DNA from: Planctomycetota bacterium
Lineage (GTDB): Bacteria; Planctomycetota; UBA8108; SXIK01
Assembly: GCA_965223845.1 (NCBI GenBank)
Contig: CBDCXR010000004.1
Location: 6,336,001 to 6,400,000 of the forward strand
DNA: 64,000 nt
Direction: 5' to 3'
Position 1 is the stretch's first letter, and each line of letters begins with the position of its first letter. Shown piece by piece: positions 7,198 through 18,016 of this stretch. A model generated the notes under the pieces. That model was not told the origin of the DNA, made no database searches, and saw nothing but the letters and a program-made list of their open reading frames with translations. The position numbers were made by a program, and so were the translations under genes.

Positions 7198-9522
7198 CTA
7201 CTCCACCCTCATCCCCCCGATCCACTCGCGAATGAGCGCGATCGACTCGGGGTGCGCGAGGTTCCGCGCGAGGTTCGGCATGCGGACGCCGAGCTCGTCC
7301 GACTCGAGGCGGTAGAGGAGGATCGACTCGTCGGGCTTTCCCGGGACGATGTCGAATTTCCGGCCGCCGGAGCCTCTTCCCGCTGCGACCGGAGATTTCC
7401 AGACACCGTAGAGACGCGGCTCATTCACGGCGAGTCGCAGGTCGAGCCCGCTCGTTCGCGCCGATCCCTCCGGGCTGTGGCAGTGAGCGCAGTTGACGTC
7501 GAGCCACGCGCGAGCGCGCTCGGCGACGGTGCCGGTCGAGGGATCATCGAACACGGGAGTAGCGGGAACGTCGCTTAGTTCCGGCGCGCCCGTGAGGAGT
7601 CCGGTCGCCGTCCAGTGGGCGAGCTGCTCGCCGTGCTCGGGTTCCTTCTCGAACGGGCGATTCAGATTACCCGCGGTCGGGCCGAGGGGGACGAATCGCC
7701 CGCTCTGGTTGTGACACGTGATGCACTGATTCGCATTCGGGATTTGATACGCGTTCGAGCGCTCCGAACCGTCGTGATGGATCCACCGGACTTCGCGACT
7801 TCCTCCTCCGAGCGCGAGCGCCGCCTCGGTTTCGTCGTCGTTCCAGATGTAAGAAAACCCGTACCATCCGGTGTCCGTGCGGTGCTCGATGCGGGTCTCG
7901 ATCAAACGTTCGCCGGCTTCGGGATGGCGAAGGTCGTGCGGGTAGGTAAACGTCTTCGCGATCACCGTCCCGGCCGGGAACTCGAACACCGAGTTCGGGT
8001 CGTACGCCATCGACTCGCCCGGCGGCAAACGAATGAACCGGTGCTTCGCGGTGTAATCGGAAAAAAGCTGCGTGTTGAGATCGTAGCGAAAGACGCCATC
8101 GGCGGGCGTCTGCGAGCGGCCGTTTCCCTCGAAGAGCGCCCACTCGGAGAGACGCTCGGGTGCGCGGCGGTAGACGAGAACCGCCGGGTTCTCGCTCGCG
8201 CTCGGTGGGGGAAGCGGAGCGAGCTCGACGCGCTCGAGCGGTTCGCTCACGCCCGAGTACGGCGTGGGGTCGCGGTCGATCCGGTGCCGTCCCGAGGCCA
8301 CATTCTCCGCGCTGAAGAGCGGCACATTGGCGTTCGCGAACGACACGTCGCCGTTGTTCGCGAGTCGGAGCGACAACTCTGCCGGGAGCTCCCCATCGAC
8401 GAGCTTCGCCGCGTCCACGATTCCGTCGAAGAAGATCTGCGGGAACGGGCTTCCGATGACATCGGCGAGCAGTGCGGCCAACTCTCCGGCCGGACGATCG
8501 CCGCCGCCCGCGATCATATTGTTGTGGATTGAGACTCCTTCGGGATACGGATCGTAGTTCGGATCCTTGATCGGACGGCCAGTGATCAAGTAACTCACGA
8601 TCGAGATTCCGGAGGTCTGGTTGTCGCGGATTTCGTTCTCGAAGACTTCGACTCGGTCGGAGGCCATGATCATGAGACCCGTTCCCGCTGGAACGCTCGC
8701 GACGATGTTCCCCGCGGGTGCGAAGTTCTCGAGGTTGTTCGCGATCACCTTGTTTCTGAAGACGCGGATGTCCGACCCGTTCGTCACTTGGAGCCCCGGA
8801 AGATCGAAGACGAGGAGTCCGCCGGTGTTTCCGGTCGCGGTGTTTTCGTAGACGTCTGCACGGATCGTGTTCTCGATCTCGATGCCGGCGACGTTTCTCT
8901 CCGCGCGCGAGCGACGAACGACGACGTCGCGCGACTGGCCGACGTAGATCCCGGCGTCCGACGCACCGATCGCGACGCAGTCCTCGATGAGCACGTTCGA
9001 ACACTGAACGGGATAGATTCCGTAGGCGCCGTTCTCTGTGTGCGGTCCGCGCGTCCACTCAGTCCGAACGCCGCGAAAGACGACTCCGTCCGCTCCGAGC
9101 ACCTTGATCGCGTTTCCGGCGCTGTCCTCGACCGCGAGGTGCTCGATGACGAAGGCGTCGCCCGTCGCGACGATGCCCTCGCTCCCGACGTTCTGCTCGC
9201 GGAACGAGAGGATGGTCTCGTCCGCCCCCCGGCCGCGGATCGTGATCCCGTCGGCGATGACGTCGAGTTGACTGGGCAGCCGGTACGTTCCCGCCTCGAG
9301 CTGAATGACATCGCCCGGCACGGCGTCGATGAGGCGCTCTTGGATCTCGTAGCGAGCCCGATCCCCGGGAGCGATGACGTAGACTTGCGGCCGCAATCGG
9401 TTGTCTCGATCGGACGTTCCTCGGCAGCTGAGGACGGAGACGGTTGTCGCCACGCAGACGGCGCTCAATCCAAGAAACCAGTTGCGCGTCCGGCTCTCGC
9501 CGAATCTTAGCGGCTGTTTCAT
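7198..9522 (-). CDS. Fusion of a parallel beta-helix domain (TIGR03805-like) and an SO2930-family diheme c-type cytochrome (TIGR03806-like); probable lipoprotein
   Basis: NGAYGIYPV, GASDAGIYVGQS, NVAGIEIEN and NTGGLLVFDLP, followed by LFSDYTAKHRFI, GTVIAKTF, CITCH and CAHCH. Lipobox-like VLSC. Confidence 0.88.
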   Translation of the reverse strand: MKQPLRFGESRTRNWFLGLSAVCVATTVSVLSCRGTSDRDNRLRPQVYVIAPGDRARYEIQERLIDAVPGDVIQLEAGTYRLPSQLDVIADGITIRGRGADETILSFREQNVGSEGIVATGDAFVIEHLAVEDSAGNAIKVLGADGVVFRGVRTEWTRGPHTENGAYGIYPVQCSNVLIEDCVAIGASDAGIYVGQSRDVVVRRSRAERNVAGIEIENTIRADVYENTATGNTGGLLVFDLPGLQVTNGSDIRVFRNKVIANNLENFAPAGNIVASVPAGTGLMIMASDRVEVFENEIRDNQTSGISIVSYLITGRPIKDPNYDPYPEGVSIHNNMIAGGGDRPAGELAALLADVIGSPFPQIFFDGIVDAAKLVDGELPAELSLRLANNGDVSFANANVPLFSAENVASGRHRIDRDPTPYSGVSEPLERVELAPLPPPSASENPAVLVYRRAPERLSEWALFEGNGRSQTPADGVFRYDLNTQLFSDYTAKHRFIRLPPGESMAYDPNSVFEFPAGTVIAKTFTYPHDLRHPEAGERLIETRIEHRTDTGWYGFSYIWNDDETEAALALGGGSREVRWIHHDGSERSNAYQIPNANQCITCHNQSGRFVPLGPTAGNLNRPFEKEPEHGEQLAHWTATGLLTGAPELSDVPATPVFDDPSTGTVAERARAWLDVNCAHCHSPEGSARTSGLDLRLAVNEPRLYGVWKSPVAAGRGSGGRKFDIVPGKPDESILLYRLESDELGVRMPNLARNLAHPESIALIREWIGGMRVE

Positions 9523-9744
9523 CTTGTGTGCCTCTGTGAACAAGAGGCCGTCCTTTCAAGATCGAGTGGCGGAAGTGCGCGATCGCGCTCTCGATACGAT
9601 ACGAAACCGGCCGTTCGTCGAGCAACAGGCGCTCGTTCGATGAAGAAGCGGCGCGGACGGGATCGAGCCGTCGAGCGTCGAGCGCGGTAGATTCTCGTCC
9701 GCCGCAGGGGATACGATCGCGGCTCCACTTCACGAGCGCCTCTC

Positions 9745-14577: not shown

Positions 14578-15222
14578 TCAGTCTTCCTGGCTTTCGGCCG
14601 CCTTCCGTCGCCGTCGCCGCGCCGCGAACGCGCCGAACGCGAGCGAGACACCGCCGAGTACCATCGTTCCGGGCTCGGGCATCGCGACCGCCGTGACGAA
14701 GCTCTCGCGGAAGCCGCCTTCGAACTCCTTCACGTGGAGCCCGACGCGGAGCGCGCCATCGCGAAGCGCCGCGAGGACGTCGTCGAAGTCGCCGCCGTTC
14801 ACCTGAAAGAGGGCGCCGAGCTTCTCGCCGGTGTTCACGCGGCCTTCGATGGTCTCGGCACGCGAGCGGAACGACTCCTGAAAGTCGACGGCGTCGCCGC
14901 CCGGGAGGTCCAACATTCCGCCCTCGCGGAACTCGACCGCGGGCGGGGAGTTGTGGAATTCTGCGAACGAGAGGAGACCGCTGCGATCGTCCAGCATGAA
15001 GTTGTGGACGGCCATTCGATACTGACCATCGTTGCAGATGTTGAAGAGGACGAGGCCGTCCCCTGCGTCGGTGATCTCGACGCTCAGCTGAGCTTCGCCC
15101 GCGGCGATCGCGTTGCCGCTCGGGTCGCCGTAGGGATTGGTGATGCCGTGGAGGCCAAAGGTCTCGGCGGCTGCTGGCGTTGCGACCAGGGTCAGCGCCG
15201 CGAGCATGAGAACAGAACGCAT
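14578..15222 (-). CDS. PEP-CTERM sorting-domain protein
   Basis: Signal peptide MRSVLMLAALTLVATPAAA; C-terminal MPEPGT + TM + RRRRRK; AAGGAG RBS before ATG 15222. Confidence 0.9.
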   Translation of the reverse strand: MRSVLMLAALTLVATPAAAETFGLHGITNPYGDPSGNAIAAGEAQLSVEITDAGDGLVLFNICNDGQYRMAVHNFMLDDRSGLLSFAEFHNSPPAVEFREGGMLDLPGGDAVDFQESFRSRAETIEGRVNTGEKLGALFQVNGGDFDDVLAALRDGALRVGLHVKEFEGGFRESFVTAVAMPEPGTMVLGGVSLAFGAFAARRRRRKAAESQED

Positions 15223-15474
15223 CGAGGGCTCCTTGAAAACAGGGGGCGAGAGGGAGAGATCTGGTGGATAGTCTCCCACTTCCAACTCCCGTACCTGACT
15301 CAGGGATCTCCCGATAGTTTCTCTAACTGATTCTGAAGCTGTGGTTTAGGGCGCACGGGATCGATGGCAGCGAGCGCCGGTGGTCTCCGGCGGCCTGTCG
15401 AGATGTCCATGTTCGGTACAGTGCTGGAATCGGAACACTCGAGGGCCCCCGGTGCGCCCGGGGCGGATGTACAC

Positions 15475-15550: not shown

Positions 15551-18016
15551 TCAGTCGTCGCAAAGAAGCCCGTCGGCAGTTGGATCGAACCCTTCGTCGT
15601 GGGGCGGGGGGAGTCCCGGCCCGTCGGCGGCGAAGAGGTTGAGCAACTTCCGAAGCGCATCTGAGATATCGACGACACCGTCGTCGTTCGCGTCGGCCGC
15701 GTCGTTGCAGAAGGGGCCCTGCTGTGACTGGAAGAGACGCCCGAGCGTCGCGAGAACGTCGGCGATGTTCACGGCGCGGTCCCGATTCGAATCGCCGCGG
15801 CGGAACCGGAAGTCCGCGAGATCGAGAACGACCTCTTCTTCGCCGCAGTGTTCGGCGAGACGATCCTCACACTGCATGAGGAAATCTTCGGCACGTGAAC
15901 GGCAGCGCTCTTCGTCACCGCCGGCGGCGACGCAGCGGTCGAACACCGCCGCGGCACCCTCGGTGCAGTCGAAGTCGCAGGGATGCGGCGGCTCCGGCTC
16001 TTCGCACCGCTCGGCGCACCGCGCGAGGAACTCGGCCGTCGCGGCCTCGCACTCCTCATCGGTGCCGCCCTCTTCGGCGCAGTGAGCCCGGAACGCTTCT
16101 CCGGCGCGCGCGCAGCGCTCTTCGCAGGTCGGCGGTTCGGGATCGCCGGGATCGTCGTCGCAGTGCGCGAGGCAGGCTTCGAGCCGCTCGTTGACGAGGT
16201 TCCGGCAGCGGCGCTCGGCCATTCGAAGACACTCGTCTCGGTCGCCGCCGTTCTCAACGCATTCCTTTACCGCATCCTCGGCGACGTCGCGGCAGCGCGC
16301 GAGCTCGAGGCGGGCGCGATGCGCACAGCGGTGCTCGCACGGCTCGGGCCGCACGCAGTTCGTGCTCACGCACTCGCGGAGGACGTGGAGGGCGCGTCGG
16401 CGACACTCGGACGGTTCGTGTCCCGACGAGGTGCACTCGGAGAACACCTCCCGAGCGACGCGCTGGCACCGGTGCACGCAGCGGTGACGCGCACCGTGCT
16501 CGCAGTGGTGGAGGCAGCGCTCGAGAACCGAGCGGCCGCGCGCCGCGCAGCGTTCGGGATCGCCGCCGTTCTCGATGCAGAGCTCGACGTAGTGACGCGC
16601 CCGTCGCTCGCAGCGTTCGCCGCACGTCGGGGGCTCGGTTGGCGGTTCGTCGCACGCCTCGCGGCAAGCGGCGACCACGGCTCTCGCCCGCTCCGCGCAT
16701 TCTTCGTCGACGGTGCCGTCGTCTCGCGTGCACTCGAGTGCGAGTCTTTCGGCGAGTCGATCGCAGCGCTCGTCGCAGCTCGGTGGCTCGGGGTTTTCGC
16801 ACGCGTGGCGGCACCGGCGGTAAAAGTGACGCGCCTTCATCGCGCACTCGTCGGGTTCGCCGCCGTCGGCGATGCACTTCTCGAGGATTTCGCGCGCCGC
16901 GTTGCCGCATCGCAAGTCGCAGGGTCGCGGCGGGTGATCGCAGTTCGACGAGCACTCCTCGAGGATTTCGCCGGCCTTCTCTCGGCATTCGGCGGGCTCG
17001 CCGCCGTCCTCGATGCACGCCGCGAAGAAACGGCGCGCGCGATGGCGGCAGGCCTCGTCGCACGACGGCGGTTCATTCGGGTCGCAACCCTCGATGCAGT
17101 GCTTGAGGAGCTCGCGTCCCCGCTCGGCGCACGTATCCGGTTCGCCACCTTCTTCGACGCACTTCGCGACGAAGTTTCGGACGCGGATGATGCAGTGCTC
17201 TTCGCAGGTCGGCGGCGGTGGTTCGCCGTTGCACCGGCGAAGGCAACCTTCGAGGACGGTTTCGTAGACGGCGGCGCACTCTTCGTCCGTGCCGCCCGCC
17301 GTCGCGCAGCGCTCGCGCGCTTCGGCGGCGATTTCGGTGCAGCGGGCGTCGCAGTCGATCGGCGGAGGCGGATCGCTGCAGAGCTTCACGCACTCTTCGA
17401 GCGAAGGAGCGAGGCGCTCGCGGCAGCGCTCGAGCTCTCCGCCCGCCCGGACGCAGCGCCGCACGGCTTCTTCGAAAGCCTGCCGGCACGCGTCTTCGCA
17501 GCTCGGCGGTTCGTCCCGGCACTCGGGGAGGCACGCTTCGAGCGTCTCGGTGTAGATCCTGCGGCAGCGCTCGGCCGAACCGCCGGCTTCGCGGCACTCG
17601 GCGGCCGCGCGGGCCGCGGCGTCGTAGCAGCGCTCCTTGCACGTCCGCGTGTCGCAGTGATCGGAGCACGCGGCGAGGGTCGCGTTGTAGATCTCGGCGC
17701 ACTGATCTTCCGTGCCGCCGTCCTCGGCGCAGGCTGCGCGCGCCGCTTCGGCGCGCGCTTCGCACACCGCCTTACAGTCGATCGGAACCGGGTCCGGGTC
17801 GGGCTCCCCGGTAGCATCGAGGCAGCGCGCGAGAAGTTCTTCTGCGGCCGCTCTGCACTCGTCTTCCGCGCCACCGTCGGCGACGCAGTGCTCGAAGCGC
17901 TCGTCGGCGAGCTGCGCGCAGCGTTCCGGGTCGATGACGACGTTCCAGTCGGCTCTCGCCGCGGTCGTGAGACCGCCGAGAAAGAGCGCGACGAGGCAAC
18001 AACTCAATCGTTTCAT
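15551..18016 (-). CDS. Secreted Cys-rich tandem-repeat protein with a C-terminal planctomycete-type dockerin-like (twin EF-hand) domain
   Basis: Signal peptide MKRLSCCLVALFLGGLTTAARA; ~14 repeats of C-x3-C-x10-C-x9-C-x10-C-x3-C with Pro-rich linkers; C-terminal FRRGDSNRDRAVNIAD...CNDAADANDDGVVDISD...GFDPTADGLLC. Confidence 0.88.
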   Translation of the reverse strand: MKRLSCCLVALFLGGLTTAARADWNVVIDPERCAQLADERFEHCVADGGAEDECRAAAEELLARCLDATGEPDPDPVPIDCKAVCEARAEAARAACAEDGGTEDQCAEIYNATLAACSDHCDTRTCKERCYDAAARAAAECREAGGSAERCRRIYTETLEACLPECRDEPPSCEDACRQAFEEAVRRCVRAGGELERCRERLAPSLEECVKLCSDPPPPIDCDARCTEIAAEARERCATAGGTDEECAAVYETVLEGCLRRCNGEPPPPTCEEHCIIRVRNFVAKCVEEGGEPDTCAERGRELLKHCIEGCDPNEPPSCDEACRHRARRFFAACIEDGGEPAECREKAGEILEECSSNCDHPPRPCDLRCGNAAREILEKCIADGGEPDECAMKARHFYRRCRHACENPEPPSCDERCDRLAERLALECTRDDGTVDEECAERARAVVAACREACDEPPTEPPTCGERCERRARHYVELCIENGGDPERCAARGRSVLERCLHHCEHGARHRCVHRCQRVAREVFSECTSSGHEPSECRRRALHVLRECVSTNCVRPEPCEHRCAHRARLELARCRDVAEDAVKECVENGGDRDECLRMAERRCRNLVNERLEACLAHCDDDPGDPEPPTCEERCARAGEAFRAHCAEEGGTDEECEAATAEFLARCAERCEEPEPPHPCDFDCTEGAAAVFDRCVAAGGDEERCRSRAEDFLMQCEDRLAEHCGEEEVVLDLADFRFRRGDSNRDRAVNIADVLATLGRLFQSQQGPFCNDAADANDDGVVDISDALRKLLNLFAADGPGLPPPHDEGFDPTADGLLCDD

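What the first reader, a model, noticed from the sequence alone, without database searches (positions are those of the whole stretch)
15830..17930. Novel-looking disulfide-stapled helical-hairpin repeat protein
Seen: ~14 repeats with mirror-symmetric Cys spacing C-x3-C-x10-C-x9-C-x10-C-x3-C, a central GG turn (e.g. CIEDGGEPAEC), helix-forming A/E/R residues and PPP linkers. Repeat 12 gains one extra Cys on each arm (3-10-10-9-7-10-3), as expected if Cys pair in nested fashion (1-6, 2-5, 3-4). Net charge shifts along the chain, with a His/Arg-rich block in repeats 10-12. There is no regular CxxCH pattern, so it is not a multiheme cytochrome. Known analogues are eukaryotic alpha-hairpinins and twin-CX9C proteins, and Cys-rich Csp copper-storage bundles. 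Inference: a secreted, tethered polyprotein of disulfide hairpins (metal sponge, inhibitor/antimicrobial array or structural fibre) that I do not recognise as a described bacterial family.
Basis: partly seen in the sequence, partly recalled or inferred. Interest (0 to 1): 0.8.

Follow-up and report, generated by a model that had tools for sequence, protein, structure and literature searches.

The report
Disulfide-stapled hairpin bottle-brush protein
This gene encodes a likely exported protein of 14 small cysteine-rich repeats, predicted to fold as separate disulfide-stapled helical hairpins on proline-rich linkers; the repeat belongs to a family of several hundred protein clusters, mostly from uncultured bacteria, that Pfam and NCBIfam do not name, and it likely acts as a tough cell-surface brush.

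Summary
Observation confirmed. ORF 18016-15551(-), 821 aa: signal peptide, 14 units C-x3-C-x10-C-x9-C-x10-C-x3-C (one 4-Cys, one 8-Cys), C-terminal dockerin-like module. AlphaFold2 gives one helix-turn-helix per unit (pLDDT 94 for three units) without confident mutual orientation (pTM 0.33-0.52). Covariation over 551 units fits the nested register; neighbouring units show no coupling above shuffles. Cysteines are lost in pairs across homologues (C1+C6 31 times, C3+C4 9, C2+C5 1; about one single loss). That supports nested disulfides, which were not measured directly. The unit has no Pfam or NCBIfam family of its own, yet finds 479 clusters at 50% identity; related loci come from Planctomycetota, Myxococcota, Binatia, Acidobacteriota and Chloroflexota genomes. 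It occurs alone or fused to dockerin, Kazal or PKD modules. Units are acidic, turns lack a basic P1 residue and linkers lack dibasic sites. So it is not an alpha-hairpinin or a thionin, and a Csp-type copper store is disfavoured. Best reading: an unprocessed, surface-docked, polyanionic bottle-brush of stable mini-domains working by avidity (fold about 0.9, function about 0.4). Main rival: protease defence, given the Kazal fusions. New variant of a known kind; interest 0.5.

The parts
15551..18016 (-). Whole gene, 821 aa plus stop (P0001); GGAG ribosome-binding-like site 9 nt upstream of the ATG
   Evidence: GC3 0.81 versus GC2 0.54
17951..18016 (-). Sec-type signal peptide, residues 1-22 (basic n-region, hydrophobic core, A-R-A cleavage site); no twin-arginine motif
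   Evidence: read by eye and heuristic; no signal-peptide predictor was available
17822..17920 (-). Unit 1 (aa 33-65), four Cys, lacks the outer pair C1/C6
16355..17776 (-). Units 2-11 (aa 81-554), six-Cys hairpins joined by 4-9 residue, mostly Pro-rich linkers
16160..16339 (-). Unit 12 (aa 560-619), elongated eight-Cys hairpin; an eight-Cys unit is third or second from last in 6 of 7 relatives examined
16004..16126 (-). Unit 13 (aa 631-671), canonical six-Cys hairpin
15845..15979 (-). Unit 14 (aa 680-724), C6 displaced by one helical turn (x7); the same form recurs before the dockerin in homologues
15554..15811 (-). C-terminal dockerin-like module (two Ca-loop motifs, two Cys)
   Evidence: PF00404 18.9 bits, below the 22.9 cut-off; E 6.5e-26 to an HMM of 136 such modules from this genome
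15481..15520 (-). Intrinsic-terminator-like hairpin (18 pairs, then a T run) right after the stop; the gene is likely the end of its transcript
   Evidence: 1 site found, shuffles average 2.7, so the weight is in its position and stem length, not the count

Best explanation
The protein is likely exported by Sec and oxidised into 14 separately folded helical hairpins, each predicted to be locked by nested disulfides, and it would be docked by its dockerin-like tail to the cell surface or matrix as an unprocessed, protease-resistant, acidic bottle-brush that works by avidity rather than through an active site. Steps and their status. (1) Repeat anatomy and family: shown. (2) Helix-turn-helix per unit: predicted with high confidence. 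(3) Nested pairing C1-C6, C2-C5, C3-C4: inferred from covariation and paired loss, about 0.9. (4) Units independent of each other: inferred from low pTM and absent inter-unit coupling, about 0.75. (5) Because C1-C6 staples both ends of a unit together, each hairpin (about 2.7 nm, estimated) would project sideways from a backbone of proline linkers (about 40-50 nm extended, estimated), with the acidic GG-D-x-E-E turn at its tip: geometric inference. (6) Docking to the cohesin-like proteins of this genome: inferred, about 0.65, not tested. (7) Role as a coat or matrix component that shields the surface and binds weakly but multivalently through acidic tips, cation bridges and a small hydrophobic stripe: inferred, about 0.4.
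For: AlphaFold2: 28 unit helices as 14 pairs, mean pLDDT 79, pTM 0.33; three units pLDDT 94, pTM 0.52; VIA-align matches mostly cover one unit at a time. Covariation, 551 units: 10 of the top 10 cross-helix pairs (of 240) have i+j 40-45, where the nested register is 42 and 45% of all pairs lie within 4 of it. In 329 adjacent-unit pairs, intra-unit z reaches 10.2, while the best off-diagonal inter-unit z is 2.9 against shuffled maxima of 2.1-2.9. Paired loss among 724 cores in 159 proteins: C1+C6 absent together 31 times; C3+C4 together 9, alone 0; C2+C5 together 1, alone 0. The genome has a VKOR-type disulfide-formation gene. The hairpins are the payload, not a stalk: 81 of the best 150 representatives have no other stretch of 100 aa or more, complete signal-plus-units ORFs are seen, and in PKD fusions the units are C-terminal to the other domains. 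The fusion partners are extracellular modules (dockerin 30, Kazal 12 of 150). The genome has 151 ORFs with the dockerin-like motif, 140 with it near the C-terminus, and 6 cohesin-like ORFs. Units are acidic (median -3; 84.5% of 407 negative); 220 of 311 linkers have two or more Pro and 3 are dibasic. Unit number varies widely between relatives while sequence drifts (26% mean non-Cys identity within P0001).
Against: No ligand, localisation or expression was measured. All conserved positions can be explained by folding alone: acidic residues at helix N-termini, Gly at the C-cap, and hydrophobic residues 12, 13, 33, 34 and 38 that covary inside the hairpin. So the acidic tips and the sticky stripe may not be functional. 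Only 30 of 150 representatives carry the dockerin, so tethering is not general. The eight-Cys unit keeps its place near the C-terminus in 6 of 7 relatives, which hints at a specific site that a generic brush does not explain. Paired losses are partly inherited, mostly in terminal units, so they reflect fewer independent events than the counts. DsbB was not found in this 92%-complete genome.
Confidence: 0.4

Rival explanations
1. Protease defence: the hairpins are inhibitors or uncleavable decoys displayed in arrays, working together with Kazal and antistasin modules.
For: 12 of the best 150 representatives are fused to Kazal repeats (Pfam confirmation). This genome has an antistasin + 10 Kazal + 1 hairpin protein. 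One homologue has hairpins behind a trypsin-like domain (P0105). Plant alpha-hairpinins include trypsin inhibitors (PMC7191063, passages).
Against: Hairpinin inhibitors use an Arg P1 in the inter-helix loop (PMC7191063, passages). Here the turn is a short, conserved Gly-rich acidic cap with 4.3% K/R and no variable exposed P1. The Kazal fusions may be few events, and both modules may simply be shuffled disulfide domains.
Confidence: 0.2
2. An envelope-stress protein: an ECF-sigma-induced periplasmic holdase or buffer, using many small amphipathic hairpins to bind unfolded proteins (Spy-like logic; the comparison is recalled).
For: An ECF-type sigma gene lies within two ORFs in 4 of 46 loci scanned, directly downstream and co-oriented in L059 and L077. 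Four hydrophobic positions (13, 17, 34, 38; 70-77% large hydrophobic) should lie on one face (geometry inferred). Many members are signal peptide plus units only.
Against: 42 of 46 loci showed no sigma hit among the nearest ORFs, and the window's own neighbours are PRPP synthetase, a nitrilase, a PEP-CTERM protein and glycogen phosphorylase. The dockerin tail and PKD fusions point outward. There was no background rate for ECF genes.
Confidence: 0.12
3. Thiolate metal sponge like Csp: the Cys stay reduced and bind Cu(I) or Zn.
For: 10.7% Cys with CxxxC motifs on helices; a His-rich block in units 10-12; a designed metal-binding bundle (2mtq; metal role recalled) shares the central turn at E 0.15.
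Against: Cys are lost pairwise along the nested register. Csp1 has a Tat signal and a four-helix bundle (PMC7558416, passages), whereas here the signal is Sec-like and adjacent units show no coupling. No position exceeds 9% His and 41% of units have none. No dedicated copper-transport or copper-chaperone family was seen among 149 neighbouring ORFs; the nearest hits were TerC, CrcB and a NosD-like beta-helix.
Confidence: 0.08
4. Redox-responsive or cross-linked wall protein: the disulfides are exchanged between chains into a network, or reduced to unfold the hairpins and lengthen the chain several-fold.
For: 43 possible disulfides per chain. One paralogue lies 133 nt upstream of a co-oriented, likely exported TlpA-like ORF that reads UxxU if TGA is selenocysteine. 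H. pylori CagY helical repeats multimerise through disulfides (PMC2581425, passages).
Against: Paired loss fits intramolecular pairs, and 47 of 56 proteins have an even Cys count from the first hairpin on. TlpA relatives were found in 6 of 10 related genomes, and none lies on a contig listed for a hairpin gene (fragmented assemblies, and not all hairpin matches were listed).
Confidence: 0.08
5. A modular precursor cut into antimicrobial or predation peptides, like plant multi-hairpinin precursors or thionins.
For: Same overall layout as modular hairpinin precursors (signal, cassette of 5-12 modules, C-terminal domain; PMC7191063 and PMC11591084, passages). The central turn resembles viscotoxins (E 0.02-0.03) and kappa-hefutoxin (E 0.15-0.18). 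Hosts include phyla with predatory members (10.1101/2023.11.21.568195, passages).
Against: Only 2.9% of 407 units reach net +3. 3 of 311 linkers are dibasic and most are Pro-rich. The models have no beta arm and the units no CC motif. No recurring protease or immunity-like neighbour was found.
Confidence: 0.07

Closest known systems
Plant alpha-hairpinins and their modular precursors (Sm-AMP-X, Tk-AMP-X, VhTI, vicilin-buried peptides)
   Same: Disulfide-stapled antiparallel helix-loop-helix with nested CX3C pairs; precursor of signal peptide + tandem modules + C-terminal domain (PMC7191063, PMC11591084, passages). VBP-8 aligns to one unit at Z 5.5, rmsd 3.2 A over 47 residues, within the range of unrelated hairpins.
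   Different: Here the helices are about three turns longer, with a third inner pair spaced x10; the units are acidic, the turn has no basic P1, the linkers are Pro-rich without dibasic sites, and the hosts are bacteria. No sequence match.
alpha/beta-Thionins (viscotoxin, crambin) and kappa-hefutoxin
   Same: The central C-x3-G-x5-C turn: best PDB sequence hits of the unit profile, E 0.02-0.18 over about 20 residues; 6 of 39 units hit PF00321 weakly; summed repeat scores pass the Pfam cut-off in L061 and P0024.
   Different: No beta1/beta2 arm and no N-terminal CC motif; not cationic; outer Cys spacing differs. The shared part is one helix-turn-helix motif, likely convergent.
Twin-CX9C / CHCH and twin-CX3C hairpins (motifs recalled, from no call)
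   Same: Two antiparallel helices clamped by nested disulfides.
   Different: Spacing is x10-x9-x10 with outer CX3C; arrays of up to about 40 units (P0021); Sec-type export. Only 1 of 39 units touches COX6B, at E 0.17.
Helicobacter CagY middle repeats and Hcp/SEL1 disulfide repeats
   Same: Bacterial, exported, tandem alpha-helical Cys-containing repeats with variable copy number and a proposed protective role (PMC2581425, passages); CagY scores E 0.21 over 18 positions.
   Different: Those repeats pack on or multimerise with neighbours in a TPR-like way; here units are separated by proline linkers, show no inter-unit coupling and carry three nested pairs.
Copper storage proteins Csp1/Csp3
   Same: Cys-rich helices.
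   Different: Csps are tetrameric four-helix bundles binding Cu(I) by thiolates, Tat-exported or cytosolic (PMC7558416, passages); not matched here by signal type, Pfam or Cys-loss pattern.
Type I dockerin (PF00404) / cohesin systems
   Same: C-terminal double Ca-loop module; cohesin-like partners in the same genome.
   Different: Below the Pfam cut-off; Planctomycetota form with a two-Cys tail; binding untested.

Membership tests
alpha-Hairpinin | Cys motif C-X3-C-X(4-20)-C-X3-C, or 6C form C-X3-C-X3-C-X(4-20)-C-X3-C-X3-C (PMC11591084) | tested here: not met
   The unit is 3-10-9-10-3. The 4C pattern does appear across each linker (C5-C6, linker, C1-C2), but covariation, paired loss and the model place the fold on the six-Cys unit.
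alpha-Hairpinin | Antiparallel helix-loop-helix with nested disulfides | tested here: met
   Predicted and inferred; not measured
alpha-Hairpinin | Modular precursor: signal + cassette + C-terminal domain | tested here: met
alpha-Hairpinin | Proteolytic release of single modules | not testable with these tools
   Indirectly disfavoured: 3 of 311 linkers dibasic, 220 with two or more Pro
alpha-Hairpinin (inhibitor type) | Arg P1 in the inter-helix loop | tested here: not met
   4.3% K/R at turn positions 19-24
alpha/beta-Thionin | beta1-alpha1-alpha2-beta2 fold with N-terminal CC motif (PMC4695807) | tested here: not met
   No strands in either model; no CC in the units
alpha/beta-Thionin | Cationic 45-48 aa peptide | tested here: not met
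   Median unit charge -3
alpha/beta-Thionin | Central helix-turn-helix C-x3-G-x5-C | tested here: met
   (weak E-values, 0.009-0.03 at best)
Csp copper storage protein | Tat signal (Csp1) or no signal (Csp3) | tested here: not met
   Sec-like signal without twin arginine (heuristic)
Csp copper storage protein | Four-helix bundle with Cys-lined core | tested here: inconclusive
   No inter-unit coupling and low pTM; coordinates not available; no Csp among the listed fold matches
Csp copper storage protein | Free thiolates binding Cu(I) | not testable with these tools
   Paired Cys loss favours disulfides
Twin-CX9C/CHCH | C-x9-C...C-x9-C spacing (recalled) | tested here: not met
   Arms are C-x10-C; no CHCH Pfam hit
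Multiheme cytochrome c | Repeated CxxCH | tested here: not met
   0 motifs
Type I dockerin (C-terminal module only) | Duplicated Ca-binding loop-helix, PF00404 over cut-off | tested here: inconclusive
   18.9 bits against cut-off 22.9; some homologues pass; E 6.5e-26 to the genome's own module HMM
Type I dockerin (C-terminal module only) | Ca-dependent binding to a cohesin | not tested
   6 cohesin-like ORFs exist in the genome; binding was not modelled

The most novel reading that the evidence does not exclude
Uncultured bacteria of several phyla have their own shuffled, eukaryote-style three-disulfide mini-domain. They string it into glycan-free bottle-brush proteins of up to about 40 hairpins and, in one Planctomycetota order, plug these into a cohesin-dockerin surface network of more than a hundred proteins. 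The variable hairpin surfaces would form a natural library of binders (against proteases, prey or host surfaces), and exported thiol-disulfide enzymes could switch the brush between compact and extended states.
Probability: 0.2. Interest if true: 0.75.

Novelty: new variant of a known kind. Interest (0 to 1): 0.5.

Why it matters
It defines a repeat domain that Pfam and NCBIfam do not name, with at least 479 clusters, seen almost only in metagenome-assembled genomes. It shows bacteria using a multi-disulfide helical mini-domain in modular arrays, a design mostly described from plants and animals. Each unit is about 41 residues, predicted to fold alone and tolerant of surface change, so the family is directly testable and is a ready natural scaffold set for stable mini-binders. 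It also gives a concrete cargo for asking what the large Planctomycetota dockerin-cohesin repertoire builds. The fold class itself is known, and the function is still inferred.

Tried and rejected
Pfam and NCBIfam: no family for the unit. Terpene_syn_C_2 and Thionin scores are sums of weak repeat hits with no passing stretch. NCBIfam gave 0 families for P0001 and at best 3 of 150 fragments on TIGR04289, E 5e-4. Foldseek against the PDB found no match at E <= 0.001 for either model. VIA-align best Z was 7.3, on generic hairpins; none reached Z 8 among 48,161 chains. The ESM Atlas gave no usable hit for P0001 120-510 or P0014, which is uninformative. A two-copy complex of one unit gave no answer, score 0.17 against a mark of 0.42, controls not folded; it counts neither for nor against self-association. 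Simple size compensation at mirror positions 9/33 and 12/30 was not seen. Phage records: no match among 50,697. Neighbourhood: nearest two heuristic ORFs on each side in 46 loci (149 ORFs, no gene finder, mostly about 4 kb flanks) showed no shared pathway. A downstream ORF family recurs in 6 Planctomycetota loci, mostly Phycisphaerae, with a YWTD propeller hit in 2 of the 4 scanned. The link to the Cys/Pro-rich walls of cultured planctomycetes (recalled) was dropped: 4 of 401 phylum genomes match, and the paper search gave only listings. Print searches that showed no description of this repeat in their listings: (listings and abstract starts only; subscription journals are not covered; no supplements were read, and a DUF-level mention there would have been missed). 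The original Csp1 paper was not held.
Full report
OBSERVATION. The span lies in an 821-aa ORF on the minus strand, ATG at 18016, stop ending at 15551. Read by eye, residues 1-22 are a Sec-type signal peptide with no twin arginine. Fourteen Cys units follow (nt 15845-17920), then a dockerin-like module and a terminator-like hairpin at 15520-15481. Nine units have the exact spacing 3-10-9-10-3. There is no CxxCH. The back-translated motif occurs 8 times in the window and 0 times in 100 shuffles.

A FAMILY, NOT A ONE-OFF. A word-based search found 18 homologues among 8,000 scored candidates; one is named as from Planctomycetota. The genome holds five ORFs with the unit among 72,182 stop-to-stop ORFs: this one, three paralogues with the same tail, and an antistasin + 10 Kazal + 1 hairpin protein. 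A profile of 39 units finds 479 clusters at E <= 0.001 (253 at 1e-10, 65 at 1e-30) among 1.84 billion representatives. In the own order 11 of 21 genomes match (10 of 11 genera; 0 of 10 genomes of one small-genome genus). In the phylum sample 4 of 401 match (a shallower search that scored at most 18 candidates per genome). Of these, 99 had an open in-frame motif and 74 scored 17 bits or more, some overlapping the same gene. Their titles are Planctomycetota of several classes, Myxococcota/Polyangia, Bradymonadia, Binatia, Thermoanaerobaculia, Chloroflexota, Gemmatimonadota and a few proteobacterial bins. All are metagenome-assembled except one weak single-unit hit in a Desulfovibrio isolate. Among the best 150 representatives, 81 have no other stretch of 100 aa or more (some are fragments), 30 carry the dockerin-like module, 12 carry Kazal repeats and 27 something else. 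The last group includes at least 7 PKD-domain proteins and one trypsin-like protein. Neither Pfam nor NCBIfam names the unit.

FOLD AND PAIRING. AlphaFold2 gives each unit two helices of about 17-20 residues around a four-residue turn (whole protein pLDDT 79, pTM 0.33; three units pLDDT 94, pTM 0.52). First, mean-field covariation on 551 units: the ten strongest of 240 cross-helix pairs all have i+j of 40-45, and nested pairing predicts 42 (background 45% within 4). Second, natural loss among 724 cores from 159 proteins. C1 and C6 are both present in 669 and absent together in 31; in 15 a Cys sits at +8 instead of C6. Of nine apparent single losses, eight have the Cys merely shifted by one or two residues. 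C3+C4 are absent together 9 times and never alone; C2+C5 once and never alone. These counts are not independent, since most involve homologous terminal units, but all three pairs behave as pairs. Thionins and kappa-hefutoxin share the central C-x3-G-x5-C turn, and that their two Cys form a disulfide is recalled. The genome has a VKOR gene; DsbB was not found. Third, 329 adjacent-unit pairs show intra-unit z up to 10.2 but no off-diagonal inter-unit coupling above five shuffled controls (2.9 against 2.1-2.9). The units therefore look independent. Fold searches returned only generic hairpins.

HOW IT LIKELY WORKS. If C1-C6 staples the two ends of a unit, each hairpin projects sideways from a backbone of short proline linkers. 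This gives a bottle-brush with bristles of about 2.7 nm and an extended length of about 40-50 nm (my estimates from residue counts). The hairpins are the payload: many complete genes encode only a signal peptide and units, and in P0001 nothing lies beyond them at the free end. No catalytic or ligand residue is conserved. The conserved positions are Cys, the turn Gly, small residues at the helix contact, helix-capping acidic residues and six hydrophobic positions that mostly covary within the hairpin. The surface is acidic and variable (median -3, 2.9% of 407 units at +3 or more). The tail matches a module whose motif is found in 151 ORFs of this genome, near the C-terminus in 140. The genome also has six cohesin-like ORFs, each with a dockerin-like tail. 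I commit to an unprocessed, stable, surface- or matrix-docked brush that acts by avidity as a coat or adhesive shield. Confidence is about 0.9 for the fold, 0.65 for docking and 0.4 for the whole. Against it: no ligand or localisation is shown, only a fifth of the top homologues have the tail, the acidic turn may be only helix capping, and the eight-Cys unit keeps its position in 6 of 7 relatives, which suggests a specific site. The His/Arg block is not constant: that unit is +10 and +6 in two relatives but -1 to -3 in four others and -1 here.

RIVALS. Protease defence (0.2) rests on the Kazal and antistasin fusions; the turn lacks the Arg P1 of hairpinin inhibitors (4.3% K/R; PMC7191063, passages). 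An envelope-stress holdase (0.12) rests on ECF sigma neighbours in 4 of 46 loci. A metal sponge (0.08) conflicts with paired loss, the Sec-like signal, unconserved His and the lack of copper genes among 149 neighbouring ORFs (PMC7558416, passages). A redox-switched or cross-linked wall (0.08) rests on one paralogue next to a TlpA-like UxxU ORF, an adjacency not seen in ten related, mostly fragmented genomes. Release of antimicrobial peptides (0.07) conflicts with charge and linkers.

KNOWN SYSTEMS AND NOVELTY. The architecture is that of plant modular alpha-hairpinin precursors, but the defining Cys motif is not met (PMC11591084 and PMC7191063, passages). It shares one turn with thionins but not their fold or charge (PMC4695807, passages). 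CagY and Hcp are bacterial precedents for exported helical disulfide repeats, but they pack as TPR-like arrays (PMC2581425, passages). The giant-gene preprint (10.1101/2023.11.21.568195, passages) discusses dockerin proteins in attachment; the passages I read do not describe this repeat. Seven literature searches showed no description in their listings; I saw listings and abstract starts only and no supplements. Earlier scan notes list the same stretch (not independent) and the dockerin module. Verdict: a real, apparently undescribed and widespread repeat family of a known structural kind, with function inferred. New variant of a known kind, interest 0.5.

Noticed in passing
window 22595-57067 (+): An 11,490-aa ORF that looks by eye like a giant secreted adhesin: beta-propeller-like and FG-GAP-like repeats, then many near-identical 'cadherin-like' repeats of about 96 aa and an acidic Pro-rich tail (labels recalled, not scanned).
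   Followed up: no
L004:5574-7469 (-), G000:C4:313573-315468: Paralogue with one antistasin, ten near-identical Kazal repeats (putative P1 Glu 8, Leu 1, Asp 1) and one C-terminal hairpin unit.
   Followed up: partly
L001:9307-10569 (+), G000:C4:7393306-7394568: TlpA-like ORF 133 nt downstream of the longest hairpin paralogue; it reads UxxU at the active site if TGA is selenocysteine; also noted in e1-6608635.
   Followed up: partly
G000:C4, six ORFs near 2442000, 2469500, 3293000, 3362700, 4514300, 5667800: Cohesin-like domains in proteins that also end in a dockerin-like module, which could let these proteins chain together; 151 ORFs with the dockerin-like motif in the genome.
   Followed up: partly
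window 14578-15285 (-): PEP-CTERM-like protein directly downstream of the finding, beyond the terminator (below cut-offs).
   Followed up: partly
L025, L028, L033, L097, L100, L101: In six Planctomycetota loci, mostly Phycisphaerae, the units-only gene is followed on the same strand by a related ORF; two of the four scanned hit the YWTD (LDL-receptor class B) propeller.
   Followed up: partly
L043, L050, L068, L073, L095 (C-terminal unit): In Binatia-like and Deltaproteobacteria-titled members the last unit has lost C3 and C4 and becomes strongly basic on its second helix, a possible anchor or binding cap.
   Followed up: no
window 7198-9543 (-): 781-aa parallel beta-helix protein with C-terminal CxxCH motifs.
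   Followed up: no
P0021 (Bradymonadia-titled record; loci L045, L046, L113, L114): 2,649-aa protein with about 40 hairpin units, the longest member found.
   Followed up: no
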